A stretch of 64,000 bases of DNA from Dendrobates tinctorius (lineage: Eukaryota): assembly GCF_039654945.1 (NCBI RefSeq), contig NW_027361671.1, positions 67,084,001-67,148,000 of the forward strand, read 5' to 3'. Positions 18,001-24,000 of the stretch are shown in pieces. The position numbers were made by a program. Position 1 is the first letter of the stretch; each line of letters begins with the position of its first letter.

Positions 18001-21000
18001 GCATCCGATTACCCACGTTCAGCTGAATTAGGGACTGACGTCAGCGGCGTCCGCACTACGGCGTCATTTCATCGAAGGCACTCTTCAATAAAATGGTGCT
18101 GCAGTGCAGTATGCGCATGCGCTGCTCCCGACTCCACACTGCGCAGCCGTCAAGTCTTCAGTCACAAGGACACATCTCCGTTTACATTATAAATATAATG
18201 CATGACACAATACATGCAATACAGTCCACACTCTTACAGCATGACATTAATTGAAACCAAACAGCCCCCATTATAGTTAAGCTATGATAGTTCCCATGAC
18301 CATTATTGGGTTTGACATCTAAAATATGAGATGTCAGGGATGAATATTATTATTTGACCTTTGTATTGCGTAAATGATCTACAATGATTGGTTCTACATA
18401 AAACTTTGAAAATGTGCTCCGTTAAGCCTCACAACTAAAAGTACGCTACTTTTTTTCACTTTTGCTGGTATTTTTGGTGAAAAAGGAAACAATTTTAGTG
18501 GAAGTGGTCATCAAAGCGTATTTCCTGACTGTTTGGAGGGTGGAGGTGCTGCGTTAGGGGTCCTGTTAGCATAGTTTCTGACCCATTACTTTGCTTGGAA
18601 GGATGCCATTGGCTTCATCTGCCTAAGGCTTCAAAATACCTTGTCCTGACCCTGATCATATTGCTAAAGATACCAAAAAGCAGGTCTGTATATGAGAAGA
18701 ATCTAACCAAAAGCAACATAGATGTTTTATATATATATATTTGTGCATAAAAGTATTATGCAAATATGAAAAAGAAAGTGTGTAGATACAGTGACTTTCT
18801 GTATAAAGGAGCAGATGATGACGATTCCACTTCTTGGGCCTTGGTTTGCACTTATGCTGATTTTGGACATCCAGATCTGGATCACACATGACAGAGACGA
18901 GATCTGTGTAGTTGAAGTTTTCCTGGATTCCTACAGCATTGCGATCAACCATATGGCCTTCTGTCTGACCATGGGCAGTAAGGTGAAGGAGCAGCCGCTT
19001 CCTTCCATCTGTCCATGGCCTTTTAGGTGAAGGAGCAGCCACTTCCTTCTGTATGTACATGGCCAAGTAGAAGAAGGAGCAGCCGCTTCCTTCTGTCTGT
19101 ACATGACCAAGTAGGTGAAGGAGCAGCCGCTTCCTTCTTTTTGTAATATCCGGTAGGTGAAGGAGCAGCCGCTGCCTTCTTTCTGTAAATATCCGGGAGG
19201 TGAAGGAGCAGCCGCTGCCTTCTGTCTGTCCATATTCGGTAGTCTTCTCCTTACCACCACATTGTAGATGAGTCGTCCAGATGGTGACATAGCAAGTATT
19301 GCTGAAAGAAGTCCTTCAATTTCATCCTTTAATTACTTGCTATGTTGCTCCAGAGGAAGGCGAAAAATAACCCTGAGGACTCGTTGATGGATTGTCCTCA
19401 TATCAAGGGAAAAAAATTCCTTCCTGATCCCAAATATGGTGATCGGAATAAATCCCTGGATGTTTGGTGCTCAAATCTACGTGGGTGTTATGTGGTGGAA
19501 GCTCGGTAGGTTTGTCACAGTCCGGTTAATGCGAAAGTCCAGTTTTGTCGTGTCATCCGATTAATGTAAATCTTCAATCCTGGATGTTACTGGAATGGGG
19601 CTGATTGTTATCAGCTTAATAGTCTTGCTGTAAGAAGAGAAATATACACGTCTGAGAATCAGCTCCTCACGTTCAGTCTATACAGTTTACTGGGGGATAC
19701 AACAATAAGGGGTATAGTGGGTAAGTGCGTTACTGGGTAACATTATGGATGTCCGTATGTGTTATACTTACATAGTAATATGGGAATGGTGGGTCGGATC
19801 TGCCGCACTCCACATCGCTCCAGTCTATGGAGTGGAAGAACGGGTGGGACCTGATGGATGTTGTTATGGCAAATCGGGTAGATGGAGTTTTGCAGAGAAG
19901 CTAGAAAATGAATGAGACCATTAGTCATTAGATTATGTATTATTACTGATAAGTTATTACACAATGTCTATGGACTGTCCACATCTTATCTTCTATCCTT
20001 GTAGTCCACCGTCATCTTTATCCATCTGGGCAGCACGGTGGCTCAGTGATTAGCGCCGCAGCCTTGCAGCGCTGGAGTCCTTGGTTCAAATCCCACCAAA
20101 GACAACATCTGCAAGGAATTTGTATGTTCTCCCTGTGTTTGCGTGGGTTTCCTCTGGGTACTCTGGTTTCCTCCCACATTCCAAAAACATACTGATAGGG
20201 AATTTAGATTGTGAACCCCATCAGGGACAGTGATGATAATATATGCAAAACTGGTAAAGCGCTGAGGAATATGTTAGCGCTATATAAAAATAAAGATTTA
20301 TTATTATCTGATACTACTCACCCCTTTTATGATGTCAATGGTATTAGTGCATATCCCTGGTGGAAAATAAGGGATGTCCTCACGCAGAGACTGGTGGTAT
20401 TCATCCAGTGAGCCTCTGCTGTAAAATGGCCAGTCACCTACACTCATCATATATAGGATGACTCCGAAGGAAAAGGAGTCTGCCAGATGGTTGTATCCTT
20501 CCTCATTCATTATCTGTGGGAACATGAGATTGGAGAGAAGCTGAATATAACGGGAAGAATGACACACAGAGAATATGAGTATCGGTCTGTGATTAGATGT
20601 GAGCAGGATACATTGGGATCAGATTATCCCTCCTGCTATCGGCACCAATCACACACTGATGTTCCTTACCTCAGGCGCTACGTAACCCTTAGTGCCAGCA
20701 TTCCACCTCACTATGGCACCCTCAGACACATTCATGACTGATAAGCCAAAGTCGGAGATTTTGATGTGTCCGCTGTCTTGGATGAGGATGTTCTCTGGCT
20801 TCAGGTCACTGCAGGGAAAAGGAGCAGACACTGATTGTGAGGATTATTCATGAAAATAACTTTTTACAATAGATATGTAAGGAGACAACAGAGAGTCACA
20901 GGTGACAGATTTATGGAGGTGAAATGATTACCTATGTATGATGCCGTGATCATGCAGGAATTGTAGTCCGCACACCATCTCTGCCGCAAAGAGTCTGTGG

Positions 21001-24000
21001 AGATGAAAGTAAAAGATGGATCAGTGGTTACATACACATTCATACGGAGAACATGAGATCACAAATGTGTCCTTTTCACCTCATTATTTGCTCTTGTTGT
21101 CATTCTCCATTGCTCCAGGACTACATTGTGCGGGCAGCGGATTATTAAGATTCGCTATAAGACATTTACCTTGTTGTCTTTGTGTTAAACATCATTGAAT
21201 CTTTCATGTGGTGAAACAGGTCTCCTCCGGCCATATAGTCCATGGCTATTGCATATTCCGTAGGTGTCTCCATAAACGCCCTCATAGACATTAGGTAGGG
21301 GCACCCGGCAGCCAGTCTCAGGACTTCTACCTCTGTAGAGATTATGTGCTCACAAGATCTCTTGTCCATGATCTTAATGGCCAGCAGTCCTTCACTGACC
21401 GGATCTGATGCCAAGCTGACCTGGAGAAAAATCACAACAGATCAGACCAAACTCCCATCTATTACTCTGTAACATGTCACTGGTTTATTCCAAGTATCAT
21501 TACATATGAACATCCTGTAATGAATAAGTCCATCCCTCCTGTGTATCTGTGCAGGATACATTGAGGGTCACGGACAAATATAAATTGACACTTACTTTTC
21601 CATAGCCTCCTTTTCCAAGATCTTTCAGGAACTCAAGACTGTAAAGGTCCATAGGTTGGTCTGTGTGGACCAGTCCTCTGTGTGGAGAAATCTGTACACT
21701 GGCATCACCAAGGCGTCGTGCCGGCATGTATGGTGTGTCGATGGACATCATTTCCACTACATCGATGGACATCTTATCCATTCCATCTGCAAGAGATGAT
21801 ACAAGATTAGCCCCTTAGCGAACACATGGTGGAAATGTTTGTCAGGTTGTGTAGTAAATGTATGGAATGGGCTCAGGAGCTGAGCATGCATCGTACCAAT
21901 GCCTGCTGCCACCTGCCTATAACGTCAGCGACCAGAGCGTTCTCCGATTACTGTAGTTTATCCATTTCAATGCTGACAATTGTATTTAAACTAAGTGACT
22001 TCCAATTTGTGTCTACGCAATTGCAGGACATAATTGCTGTGGGTTGGTTGTTTAAAATGACTACCTGGGCCTGCTGAAAACCCCTGACTCTCACTTCCCT
22101 TCTCCTGTGAAGACCAGCCTGGCTTAATTTCATATGAGAACATTAATTTAGCTATATACAGTTCTATCACAGTACAAGCGATCAGAAAATCACAGGTTCA
22201 AGTCCCCTAAGGAGACTAAAGAAAAGAAGTAACTGAAAAAATTGTTACAGAAGAAAACAGAAAATGTAAAAACTTTAATTAATAATAGCAATAATAATGA
22301 TAATAATAATTTGCATCTGTATTATCACTACATCTATATTGGTCCGATACACAAAAATGCAATATTTATTATTATTAATGCAAACCGTAAACACTGAAAT
22401 GAGAAAAAAATGAAAATTGATTTTTTGAGAGTGCCAGATCCACTTAAACAATTGTAATGAAGAGATATCACAATGTCCGCTCTACCCAAGAAAGGTATCA
22501 ATAAAAGCTACAACTCGACACGGGAAAAAAAAGTCCTCACACAGCTCCATCAAGCTATCAAAATTAAAAAGATACAATGTCTCAAAATATGGGGTCACAA
22601 ACCAATTTTTTTTTTAAATTCACAATTTTCTTTCAACATCAAATAAAATGAAAACCCCTATGTATATTCAGCATTATCATAGTTGTCACTGACATGGAGA
22701 AATATTTTGTGAGGTCATTTTTGCCACTTTTTTTACCCACACTTTAAATCTTTTTCCCTATTTTCCAGAACATTGAATGGTAAAATAAATAATGTTCAAA
22801 ACTACAGCTCGGTCCACTAAAAAAACAAGTCCACGTATGGCTACTTTGGCAGAAAAATGAAAAATAGTTATTGGTTTTATAAGGAGTAAGAAAAAAAAAA
22901 CGGACAGTTACCAGCTCAAGAAGGGGTTAACAAATATAGCTCCAGAAGAAATATTACAATTTTATACAGCATTATGTAAATGAGCAGGAAATGTCTAATA
23001 TTTGGGCTCCCATTCATAATAACTGTCCATTAGCAAAAAGTTCCTGTTGCCCATAGCAATGAATCACAGCACAGATTCTATTTCTTAACATTCTATAGAA
23101 CAATGAAAGCGCATTGTGATTGGTTGCTATGGACAACAAAGACAGTTTTTCTACACTTTCGATAATTGTGGCCAGTACATAATATTAGGAGTATAATCCC
23201 ACTCACCCCAGTCTTATTATACTGAGCAGTGTCCATCTTACCTGGTCCCTCTTTATCCAGTGAGGTGTTTGGTGGAGAATCACTCAGCTGTTTGTTATCT
23301 GGGATGGAGATGTTCACAGCTGATGTCCTGGACCTCCGTGATGCCCCATTCCCATTTATAATGGGTTTAGCATAGATGAGACGTCTTCTACATTGGACAA
23401 CCCAGTCTCTGCTGTTCCTGATCCTCTTCTGGGCTGCCGCTCTTTGTAGGTTTGGTGTCACCAGACTTTCAGATCTGGAGAATGTGACATGTCTTGGTGT
23501 TTCTTGGAGAACCTCTTCCAGCTCTAACTCTGCGCTGATGTTTCTACGCTTATTGAGGATGTCTTCTTTGTTCCTCCTCCGTATTTCAGGGACCAGATCT
23601 CCGATTTTTTTCAATGAGATAAGAAAGGCCCTCTGAATCTCAGCGGAGGCTGCAGAGTGAGAATCCATGAGGGTCTCCATTTGCCTTTTCTCTGTAAGGA
23701 TCTCATGTCTTTTGGTCTTTCTCATTTTCTCCAGATTTTGTCGTTTGAAAGCCATTTCTGAGGCTTCAGTGTCCATGTCCAGTAATATAGAGTCTTTTCG
23801 CCCTAAAGCGAACAATGGTACCTGCTCTTCATTTATTCCTCTCTTCTCTCTCAGAACCCAATCTCTTTGGGCTCTTCTCTCTTTATCCATTTTAAAATGC
23901 ATTTTTGCTTCGTTTGTCACGAAAAACAAAAGGGGTTGCCTCCCCTTGGGAGTCTGTAAGGCAGTGATTTTCCTTAGGCTGCAACAATGGAATATAGAAT

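What the first reader, a model, noticed from the sequence alone, without database searches (positions are those of the whole stretch)
19616..23902. Intact 8-exon kinase gene hidden in a transposon-dense region
Seen: eight exons join in frame via canonical splice sites with all core catalytic motifs, while most surrounding element ORFs are broken. Introns 2-7 are short (~120-420 nt). Inference: a functional or very recently duplicated member of a lineage-expanded PKC-like kinase family rather than a PRKCD/PRKCQ ortholog.
Basis: partly seen in the sequence, partly recalled or inferred. Interest (0 to 1): 0.65.

Follow-up and report, generated by a model that had tools for sequence, protein, structure and literature searches.

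The report
Intact divergent PKC-like kinase gene
An intact, spliced gene for an unusual protein kinase related to protein kinase C sits among broken transposons; it lacks the usual regulatory parts of that family but is otherwise an ordinary lineage-specific gene.

Summary
On the minus strand, eight exons (23902..19616) join in frame through seven GT..AG introns of 1455, 175, 175, 123, 156, 421 and 144 nt, giving 545 codons plus TAA. Searched exon by exon, exons 3-6 hit successive parts of the Pfam protein-kinase profile. Human PKC theta is the best solved relative of exons 4, 6 and 7, GRK5/6 of exon 5, and CaMK4/DCLK1 weakly of exon 3.

The HRD arginine is a serine, from a split codon AG|T. 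The activation-loop threonine position holds a tryptophan. No AGC C-terminal tail was found: the protein ends six residues after PPF.

No C1 or C2 module was found anywhere in the window. The 220-residue first exon has no relatives and is predicted as a long basic helix.

The surroundings are broken LINE, gypsy and DNA-transposon remains. There is only one kinase copy in the window.

"Not a PRKCD/PRKCQ ortholog" and "PKC-like" are supported. The joined protein was never assembled, searched or folded. I do not take the window for human.

The parts
23242..23902 (-). Exon 1 (661 nt, ATG at 23902; a second in-frame ATG lies at 23890, and an upstream in-frame ATG at 24013 lies in the same open frame). 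It encodes 220 residues plus the first base of a split codon. The product is a basic, helix-rich N-terminal region without known relatives.
   Evidence: The donor is G|GTAAGA. Pfam gives only sub-threshold IBB, E 0.0039 and 18.1 bits against a cutoff of 23.8. PDB gives 0 hits at E<=10. The best Atlas score is 0.83, below the 0.9 lead level. The AlphaFold single-sequence model has mean pLDDT 72.6 and pTM 0.30, with helices at 7-20, 35-134 and 150-177 and residues 178-220 unstructured. K+R make up 20% of residues, with basic clusters at 108, 118 and 159-174.
21596..21786 (-). Exon 2 (191 nt): a linker, then the start of the kinase domain with the glycine loop GKGGYGK.
   Evidence: Acceptor ...cttgcag| and donor |gtaagt; phase 1 in and phase 0 out. 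No Pfam or PDB hit on its own.
21170..21420 (-). Exon 3 (251 nt): beta-3 Lys (LAIK), alpha-C Glu (STEVEVL) and the hinge (AMDYMAGGDLF).
   Evidence: Pfam Pkinase profile positions 23-98, E 2.8e-7. The best PDB hits are CaMK4 at 2.6e-5 and DCLK1; PKC eta scores 3.5e-4.
20932..20994 (-). Exon 4 (63 nt): alpha-E helix up to the His of the catalytic loop. It ends with AG of the split codon.
   Evidence: Pfam Pkinase positions 103-121, E 0.041. PKC theta is the best PDB hit at E 0.011, aligning chain residues 111-129.
20670..20808 (-). Exon 5 (139 nt). Its first base T completes AGT = Ser, so the motif reads H-S-D rather than H-R-D. It then encodes DLKPEN, DFG, the activation segment and APE.
   Evidence: Pfam Pkinase positions 123-167, E 6e-12 and 45.9 bits. 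GRK5 is the best PDB hit at 4.9e-11, with 28/46 identical by my count.
20322..20513 (-). Exon 6 (192 nt): alpha-EF through alpha-G of the C-lobe.
   Evidence: Pfam Pkinase positions 170-212, E 5.8e-4. PKC theta is the best PDB hit at 3.6e-7; the next is yeast PKA at 1.8e-4.
19772..19900 (-). Exon 7 (129 nt): alpha-H/alpha-I, ending ...DPPFPYYY.
   Evidence: PKC theta is the best PDB hit at 1.7e-5, aligning chain residues 242-278 of a 334-residue chain. About 56 C-terminal residues of that chain therefore have no counterpart here.
19616..19627 (-). This is the least certain part of the model.
   Evidence: The alternatives also end at once: the acceptor at 19691/19690 gives an immediate TAA, and read-through of the exon 7 donor reaches a stop after 13 codons (read).
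19328..19333 (-). ATTAAA, a possible polyadenylation signal 283 nt after the stop codon.
   Evidence: It is the only AATAAA/ATTAAA on this strand between 19615 and 18000.
20020..20300 (+). SINE-like insert in intron 6, antisense to the gene. It accounts for that intron's larger size.
   Evidence: Read. Its 20-nt head occurs once in the window. ARAGORN and Rfam do not call it. The SINE label is from recall.
23045..23138 (.). Small hairpin (MITE-like) element in intron 1.
   Evidence: Two 24-nt arms, 88% complementary, 46 nt apart.

Best explanation
This is a real, intact, spliced protein-coding gene on the minus strand, about 4.3 kb from ATG to stop. It encodes a protein of about 545 residues.

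The C-terminal 60% is a Ser/Thr kinase domain of the AGC group. Its C-lobe is closest to the novel PKCs (theta/delta type), and its activation segment is closest to GRK4-6.

It is not a canonical PKC:
- It has no C1 or C2 lipid-sensing modules.
- It has no AGC C-terminal tail (turn and hydrophobic motifs).
- It has Ser in place of the HRD arginine.
- It has Trp where AGC kinases carry the activation-loop threonine.

The last two changes belong together. By established kinase knowledge, a kinase without the RD arginine does not need a phosphate on its activation loop.

The most likely working (inferred, not shown): the residues for ATP binding and phosphotransfer are kept (Lys, Glu, Asp, Lys, Asn, DFG). 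It would therefore be a catalytically competent kinase that is independent of diacylglycerol and of PDK1. Its placement or assembly would be set by the new N-terminal region, a roughly 100-residue amphipathic helix with basic, NLS-like clusters. It probably arose as a lineage-specific duplicate of the catalytic half of a novel-PKC-type gene joined to a new first exon.
For: - Gene structure: 8 exons, 7 GT..AG introns, in frame, 545 codons. The chance of such an open frame is about 1e-12, and exon G+C is 0.464 against 0.374 for introns.
- Colinear Pkinase hits for 4 of 7 exons.
- PDB: PKC theta ranks first for exons 4, 6 and 7. AGC kinases fill the top of the exon 5 list: GRK5/6/4, S6K1, AKT1/2, RSK, PKC beta, SGK1.
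- Catalytic residues can be read directly. The alpha-C Glu, alpha-F Asp and alpha-H/I Arg align to those of the solved kinases in the printed alignments.
- No C1 pattern in six frames of the window.
- No tail found.
- The N-terminal helix is predicted with pLDDT above 90 over about residues 50-125. Hydrophobic periodicity of 3.6 residues was reached by 1% of 2000 shuffles.
- No LTR or TIR pair brackets the gene, so it is not cargo of a transposon.
- High divergence from all solved kinases (at most 61% identity in any exon, about 37% in exons 6 and 7) together with an unbroken frame argues for long-term selection on coding capacity (inference).
Against: - AGC kinases normally need their C-tail for a stable, active N-lobe (established knowledge), so a tail-less copy may be inactive or unstable.
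- The terminal exon of three codons is unusual and unsupported by any transcript.
- The gene sits in transposon-dense DNA, with a gypsy element 2.6 kb downstream that could have cut off a former last exon.
- Only exon 5 passes Pfam's curated cutoff alone.
- Exons 1, 2 and 7 have no Pfam hit.
- Exon 3's best PDB hits are CaMK-group, not AGC.
- No expression data, no orthologue or paralogue, and no dN/dS could be obtained.
- The heptad (3.5-residue) periodicity expected of a classical coiled coil is not significant: 15% of shuffles reach it.
Confidence: 0.6

Rival explanations
1. It is a young unprocessed pseudogene: a recent, 3'-truncated segmental copy of a functional family member located elsewhere. 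It looks intact only because it has not had time to decay. The missing tail and the QDY-stop exon would mark the break of the duplication or of a transposon insertion.
For: - No AGC tail was found in the 7.7 kb downstream.
- The terminal coding exon is only 3 codons long.
- The HRD Arg is lost.
- The surroundings are transposon-dense, with a 44-nt satellite and a gypsy element directly downstream.
Against: - All 14 splice signals and 545 codons are intact.
- The acceptor of exon 8 is strong, and a poly(A) signal follows at a normal distance.
- Loss of the RD arginine and of the loop threonine are mutually consistent changes rather than random damage.
- No second copy or duplication boundary is visible in the window.
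Confidence: 0.25
2. The gene model is incomplete. Further coding exons lie outside what I could recognise: a divergent tail exon beyond the downstream transposons, or upstream exons joined through the acceptor-like site near 23950. The true protein would then be a more canonical AGC kinase.
For: - The frame of exon 1 stays open upstream to 24046, and an acceptor-like ...ccttacag| lies in phase at about 23950.
- The downstream search rested on Pfam, PDB and two recalled motifs only.
Against: - All three ways of leaving exon 7 hit a stop within 0-13 codons.
- 83 stop-free stretches of at least 30 aa on this strand between 12001 and 19771 showed nothing tail-like by eye.
- No C1 pattern occurs anywhere in the window, including the 40 kb upstream on this strand.
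Confidence: 0.12
3. It is a chance arrangement of open frames, or a kinase-like fragment belonging to a transposable element.
For: None beyond the location among transposons.
Against: - Colinear Pkinase hits in four successive exons.
- PDB E-values down to 4.9e-11 for a 46-residue exon.
- P about 1e-12 for the open frame.
- No flanking terminal repeats.
Confidence: 0.01

Closest known systems
Novel protein kinase C, theta/delta type (catalytic domain; solved for human PKC theta, e.g. 4q9z, 1xjd, 2jed, 5f9e)
   Same: It is the best solved relative of exons 4, 6 and 7, with E-values of 0.011, 3.6e-7 and 1.7e-5. The exons are colinear with chain residues 111-129, 181-230 and 242-278. The GLQFLH, YNH..D..SFGV.LY and HPFF..I.W....DPPF stretches are shared in the printed alignments.
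   Different: - No C2-like or C1 modules.
- No C-terminal tail: the PKC theta chain runs 56 residues beyond the last aligned residue.
- H-S-D instead of H-R-D.
- No activation-loop Thr.
- Only about 37-58% identity per exon.
- An unrelated N-terminal helical region.
G-protein-coupled receptor kinases GRK4/5/6
   Same: They are the best solved relatives of exon 5 (catalytic loop to APE), at 4.9e-11 with 28/46 identical by my count. The shared pattern is GHI.ISD.GL.V....EG...R...GT.GY.APE. From recall, GRKs likewise do not rely on activation-loop phosphorylation.
   Different: Pfam finds no RGS-homology domain in exons 1-2. For exons 6 and 7, GRKs rank far below PKC theta: GRK1 scores 0.024 and GRK5 0.075 on exon 7, and no GRK is among the 60 rows shown for exon 6.
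PDK1 and PKM-type free catalytic domains (from recall, not tested here)
   Same: Works like: PDK1 is an AGC kinase without a hydrophobic motif of its own. PKM forms are PKC catalytic domains expressed without the lipid-sensing regulatory half, and are therefore constitutively active.
   Different: PDK1 keeps its RD arginine and loop phosphorylation and has a PH domain. PKM forms keep the full C-tail. Neither has this N-terminal helix. No sequence comparison beyond the PDB lists was made; PDK1 appears only at E about 0.8 for exon 4.

Membership tests
Eukaryotic protein kinase superfamily (Pfam PF00069) | Colinear match to the kinase-domain profile | tested here: met
   Exons 3, 4, 5 and 6 match profile positions 23-98, 103-121, 123-167 and 170-212, with E-values of 2.8e-7, 0.041, 6e-12 and 5.8e-4. 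That is 4 of 7 exons. Only exon 5 exceeds the curated cutoff alone. The joined protein was not scanned.
Eukaryotic protein kinase superfamily (Pfam PF00069) | Catalytic residues: GxGxxG, beta-3 Lys, alpha-C Glu, catalytic Asp/Lys/Asn, DFG, APE | tested here: met
   GKGGYGK, LAIK, STEVEVL, DLKPEN, DFG and APE can be read. Glu, the alpha-F Asp and the alpha-H/I Arg align with solved kinases. The motif definitions are from recall.
RD kinases (most AGC kinases, all PKCs) | Arginine before the catalytic Asp (HRD) | tested here: not met
   The split codon AG|T gives Ser, so the motif is H-S-D. No alternative acceptor exists.
AGC kinase group | C-terminal tail with turn motif and hydrophobic motif (Pfam Pkinase_C) | tested here: not met
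   The protein ends 6 residues after PPF. Five downstream ORFs gave 0 Pfam families at E<=10. The best candidate ORF gave 0 PDB hits. Motif regexes over 9000..19771 found nothing convincing. 83 ORFs read by eye showed nothing. A distant or very divergent exon cannot be excluded.
AGC kinase group | Activation-loop Thr (PDK1 site) four residues before the conserved GT | tested here: not met
   The sequence is [13 protein letters not shown], with Trp at that position. The consensus is recalled. No alignment to a kinase that carries the Thr was printed.
AGC kinase group | Nearest solved relatives are AGC kinases | tested here: met
   Exons 4-7 have PKC theta, GRK5/6, S6K1, AKT, PKC iota/eta and PKN at the top. 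Exon 3 is the exception: CaMK4/DCLK1 come first and AGC kinases appear from rank 9.
Protein kinase C (novel, delta/theta) | Tandem C1 zinc fingers (diacylglycerol/phorbol-ester binding) | tested here: not met
   A C1 pattern search (recalled, PROSITE-like) in all six frames of the window found 0 full matches and 0 second-half matches. Exons 1 and 2 have no C1 hit in Pfam. A C1 domain split by introns could escape the full pattern.
Protein kinase C (novel, delta/theta) | N-terminal C2-like domain | tested here: not met
   Exon 1 has no C2 hit in Pfam and 0 PDB hits, and it is predicted all-helical.
Protein kinase C (novel, delta/theta) | Orthology to PRKCD/PRKCQ (synteny, tree position, shared intron positions) | not testable with these tools
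   No eukaryotic genome or protein collection was open, and no reference sequences were available for a tree. The joined protein was left out by instruction.
GRK family | RGS-homology domain flanking the kinase domain | tested here: not met
   Exons 1, 2 and 7 have no RGS hit in Pfam.
   The window holds one copy. The best non-self tblastn hit, at E 0.012, lies inside a LINE RT frame. [quoted passage not shown] Neither shows an expansion.

The most novel reading that the evidence does not exclude
The gene represents a lineage-specific kinase family derived from the catalytic half of a novel PKC. In that family the whole AGC regulatory logic has been stripped: lipid-sensing C1/C2, the PDK1-dependent loop threonine, the RD arginine, and the tail with its hydrophobic motif. 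In its place is a new basic helical N-terminus that directs or assembles a constitutively active enzyme. It would be a natural 'tail-less, non-RD AGC kinase', showing that the AGC core can work without its C-tail.
Probability: 0.2. Interest if true: 0.55.

Novelty: new member of a known kind. Interest (0 to 1): 0.3.

Why it matters
If the gene is expressed and active, it is a natural experiment on what an AGC kinase core needs. It keeps the phosphotransfer residues but has dropped the C-tail, the RD arginine, the loop threonine and every lipid-sensing module, all of which are considered central to PKC maturation and control.

For annotation it matters in a simpler way. An automatic name such as 'protein kinase C delta/theta type-like' would suggest diacylglycerol regulation, and this protein cannot have that. 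It also shows that an intact host gene can persist in DNA that is otherwise mostly dead transposons.

Otherwise it is an ordinary finding: one more divergent paralogue of a very large enzyme family.

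Tried and rejected
- **Tail exon hunt.** The ORF 19336-19470(-) looked by eye faintly like an AGC tail (..KEFF..). It gave 0 Pfam families at E<=10 and 0 PDB hits at E<=10. Four other downstream ORFs gave 0 Pfam families. Recalled tail motifs found only four short matches, at 9949, 10416 (matched by two patterns) and 12360, in 21-34-aa frames; I rejected them.
- **Six-frame Pfam scan.** I did not resend it. I listed the 83 stop-free stretches of at least 30 aa and read them by eye, finding nothing.
- **Second kinase copy.** tblastn of 7 exon peptides, plus one candidate that I mis-framed, against the window found only self hits. The weak hits at 51146 (E 0.83) and 50713 (E 0.012) lie in a LINE RT frame and are chance.
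- **Transposon cargo.** No terminal repeats bracket the gene.
- **Exon 1 relatives.** The best Atlas score was 0.83. PDB gave 0 hits. Foldseek against PDB gave 0 hits at E<=0.001. The Pfam IBB and Pkip-1 hits are below cutoff.
- **Classical coiled coil.** The 3.5-residue periodicity is not significant.
- **Homodimer of exon 1 residues 30-180.** The complex job gave no verdict, score 0.00. It counts neither for nor against.
- **Literature.** Four searches found no description of such a family. I saw only listings and abstracts, except for the passages.
- **Not used.** I did not use genome contigs (prokaryotes only), the phage, plasmid and E. coli collections, or the second Atlas call, because none could bear on a vertebrate-type gene.

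Full report
**What is there.**
- The eight exons are 23902..23242, 21786..21596, 21420..21170, 20994..20932, 20808..20670, 20513..20322, 19900..19772 and 19627..19616.
- They total 1638 nt, which is 545 codons plus TAA.
- All seven introns are GT..AG with pyrimidine-rich acceptors. Their lengths are 1455, 175, 175, 123, 156, 421 and 144 nt, and their phases are 1,0,2,2,0,0,0.
- With the local stop-codon frequency of 0.049, an open run of 545 codons has P about 1.3e-12.
- Exons are G+C-richer than introns, 0.464 against 0.374.
- An ATTAAA lies 283 nt after the stop codon.

**How the searches were done.** The joined 545-residue product was never assembled, searched, folded or put in a tree. This leaves open a whole-domain score, a fold of the kinase domain, and a phylogeny.

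**It is a kinase.**
- 4 of 7 exon translations match Pfam Pkinase in colinear order:
  - exon 3: profile positions 23-98, E 2.8e-7;
  - exon 4: positions 103-121, E 0.041;
  - exon 5: positions 123-167, E 6e-12;
  - exon 6: positions 170-212, E 5.8e-4.
- Only exon 5 passes the curated cutoff on its own. Exons 1, 2 and 7 have no significant family.
- Against solved structures:
  - exon 4's best hit is human PKC theta (0.011);
  - exon 6's best hit is PKC theta (3.6e-7; the next is yeast PKA at 1.8e-4);
  - exon 7's best hit is PKC theta (1.7e-5; the next is PKC iota at 0.008);
  - exon 5's best hits are GRK5/6/4 (4.9e-11 to 2.9e-10), followed by S6K1, AKT, RSK, PKC beta and SGK1;
  - exon 3's best hits are weak, CaMK4 and DCLK1 at about 3e-5, with MSK1, PKN1, PKC eta and SGK1 following.
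- By my count from the printed alignments, identity is 11/19 for exon 4, 19/51 for exon 6 and 14/37 for exon 7 against PKC theta. It is 28/46 for exon 5 against GRK5 and 19/63 for exon 3 against CaMK4.
- So this is an AGC-group catalytic core with a novel-PKC-like C-lobe and a GRK-like activation segment, far from any solved kinase.

The glycine loop (GKGGYGK), LAIK, the alpha-C Glu, DLKPEN, DFG, APE, the alpha-F Asp and the alpha-H/I Arg are all present. Three features are not.
- The codon before the catalytic Asp is split between exon 4 (AG) and exon 5 (T). It reads Ser, so the motif is H-S-D, not H-R-D.
- The activation segment reads ..[13 protein letters not shown]. By the recalled AGC consensus, the position of the PDK1-site threonine is Trp.
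- The protein stops six residues after the PPF that closes the kinase domain. The aligned PKC theta chain continues for 56 more residues.
- I looked for a tail exon and found none:
  - five downstream ORFs gave no Pfam family at E<=10;
  - the most suggestive ORF gave no PDB hit;
  - recalled tail motifs found nothing convincing down to 9000;
  - 83 open stretches of at least 30 aa between 12001 and 19771 showed nothing by eye;
- Every way of leaving exon 7 ends within 0-13 codons.

**The N-terminus.**
- Exon 1 (220 residues) has no relatives:
  - Pfam gives only sub-threshold IBB and Pkip-1;
  - PDB gives nothing at E<=10;
  - the best Atlas score is 0.83.
- It is 20% Lys+Arg, with basic clusters at 108, 118 and 159-174.
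- A single-sequence AlphaFold model has mean pLDDT 72.6 and pTM 0.30. It gives one long helix at 35-134 (block means 78-97), a second helix at 150-177, and a disordered end.
- Foldseek found nothing at E<=0.001.
- Hydrophobic periodicity fits an amphipathic helix: the 3.6-residue signal was reached by 1% of shuffles. It does not clearly fit a heptad coiled coil: the 3.5-residue signal was reached by 15%.
- No C1 pattern occurs in any frame of the window, and no C2 or RGS domain was found.
- The start codon is not settled. In-frame ATGs lie at 24013, 23902 and 23890, and an acceptor-like site near 23950 would allow an upstream exon.

**Surroundings.** The region is indeed transposon-dense and the elements are broken.
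- A LINE at 4029-7962(-) has an endonuclease, an RT in two frames and a GDSL-type ORF1, spread over four frames.
- Gypsy-type pieces lie at 8952-10304(+), 10829-11254(-), 11666-12592(-) and 13139-16987(+). In the last, the RT and the integrase are each split by frame changes.
- Further remains:
  - a Tc1-like DDE_3 fragment at 39194-39628;
  - LINE pieces at 44359-45309(-), 50793-52088(-), 63392-64000(-) and 346-816(+);
  - a zf-BED frame at 53777-54184.
- Satellites flank the gene at 18957-19233, 25105-27151 and 27834-28657.
- No terminal repeats bracket the gene, and there is no second kinase copy.

**Is it human?** I do not take this window for human.
- No exon exceeds about 61% identity to any solved, mostly human, kinase.
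- The window carries long gypsy, Tc1-like and esterase-bearing LINE frames.
- From recall only, the SINE-like insert in intron 6 and the hairpin in intron 1 resemble frog repeats. This was not tested.

**Interpretation.** The combination of deep divergence with an unbroken frame and 14 good splice signals means the lineage of this gene has been under selection for coding capacity. Whether this copy still is depends on its age.
- My best reading (confidence 0.6) is a live gene for a regulatory-module-free, non-RD, tail-less PKC-like kinase guided by a new helical N-terminus.
- The main rival (0.25) is a young 3'-truncated duplicate.
- An incomplete model is a smaller rival (0.12).
- 'Not a PRKCD/PRKCQ ortholog' is supported. 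'PKC-like' is supported for the C-lobe. 'Lineage-expanded' is untested.

**Literature.** Four searches found no description of such a family. [quoted passage not shown] In one it is a 227-aa hylid-frog protein in a BLAST table (PMC13696840, passage seen). In another it is an entry in a toad gland protein list (PMC6707386, passage seen). Supplementary files, which I could not open, may list more.

**Verdict.** This is a real and correctly delimited gene with unusual but explicable features. It is an ordinary kind of finding: a divergent paralogue of a huge family. Interest is 0.3.

Noticed in passing
window 46859-46951 (-): Rfam 7SK match: 66.7 bits, E 5e-15, covering only model positions 9-98 of 331. 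It is probably a 7SK-derived fragment or repeat rather than a gene.
   Followed up: no
window 47927-48726 and 49336-50235: Two pairs of tandem arrays have units that are reverse complements of each other. One pair is 21-nt GGGGGCTGTGCCGGCCTGCCG against GCACAGCCCCCCGGCAGGCCG; the other is 11-nt TACATACTACA against TGTATGTAGTA. Together they form a large inverted structure about 2.3 kb across, possibly a foldback-type element or an inverted duplication.
   Followed up: no
window 25105-27151 and 27834-28657: A 2-kb minisatellite of about 20-nt units (about 101 copies) and an 0.8-kb array of 43-nt units (19 copies) begin 1.2 kb upstream of the kinase gene's 5' end. They create long spurious open frames at 24897-27474.
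   Followed up: partly
window 18957-19233: A 44-nt tandem repeat of 6.4 copies lies about 95 nt beyond the putative poly(A) signal of the kinase gene. Open frames run through it; the one scanned, 18659-19315(-), has no Pfam family.
   Followed up: partly
window 24000-24050: About 100-150 nt upstream of the ATG at 23902, two copies of TGATGTCA lie at about 24006-24013 and 24042-24049. The first sits inside an 18-nt palindrome at 24000-24017. A CCAAT lies on the gene's strand at about 24029-24033. These are promoter-like by eye (CRE-like; the motif names are recalled) and have no statistical support.
   Followed up: no
window 6940-7962 (-): The LINE's upstream ORF carries a GDSL-lipase/OSK-like domain, at E 1.4e-6 and 5.2e-5 and below the curated cutoffs. 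From recall, this is the esterase-type ORF1 seen in some CR1/L2-like LINEs of non-mammalian vertebrates.
   Followed up: no
window 42315-43607 (+): A 430-aa open frame with no Pfam family holds Pro-rich 18-54-nt tandem repeats at 43141-43376. Neighbouring frames at 41167-42120(+) also have no family. Their nature is unknown.
   Followed up: partly
window 53777-54184 (+): A 135-aa frame with a BED zinc finger, E 8.2e-5. It is probably a hAT-type transposase remnant.
   Followed up: no
window 23587-23468 (-), residues 106-144 of exon 1: The basic helix ..EIRRRNKEDILNKRRN.. gives a sub-threshold match to the importin-alpha IBB domain: E 0.0039, 18.1 bits against a cutoff of 23.8. This is a lead for nuclear import or importin binding, not evidence.
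   Followed up: partly
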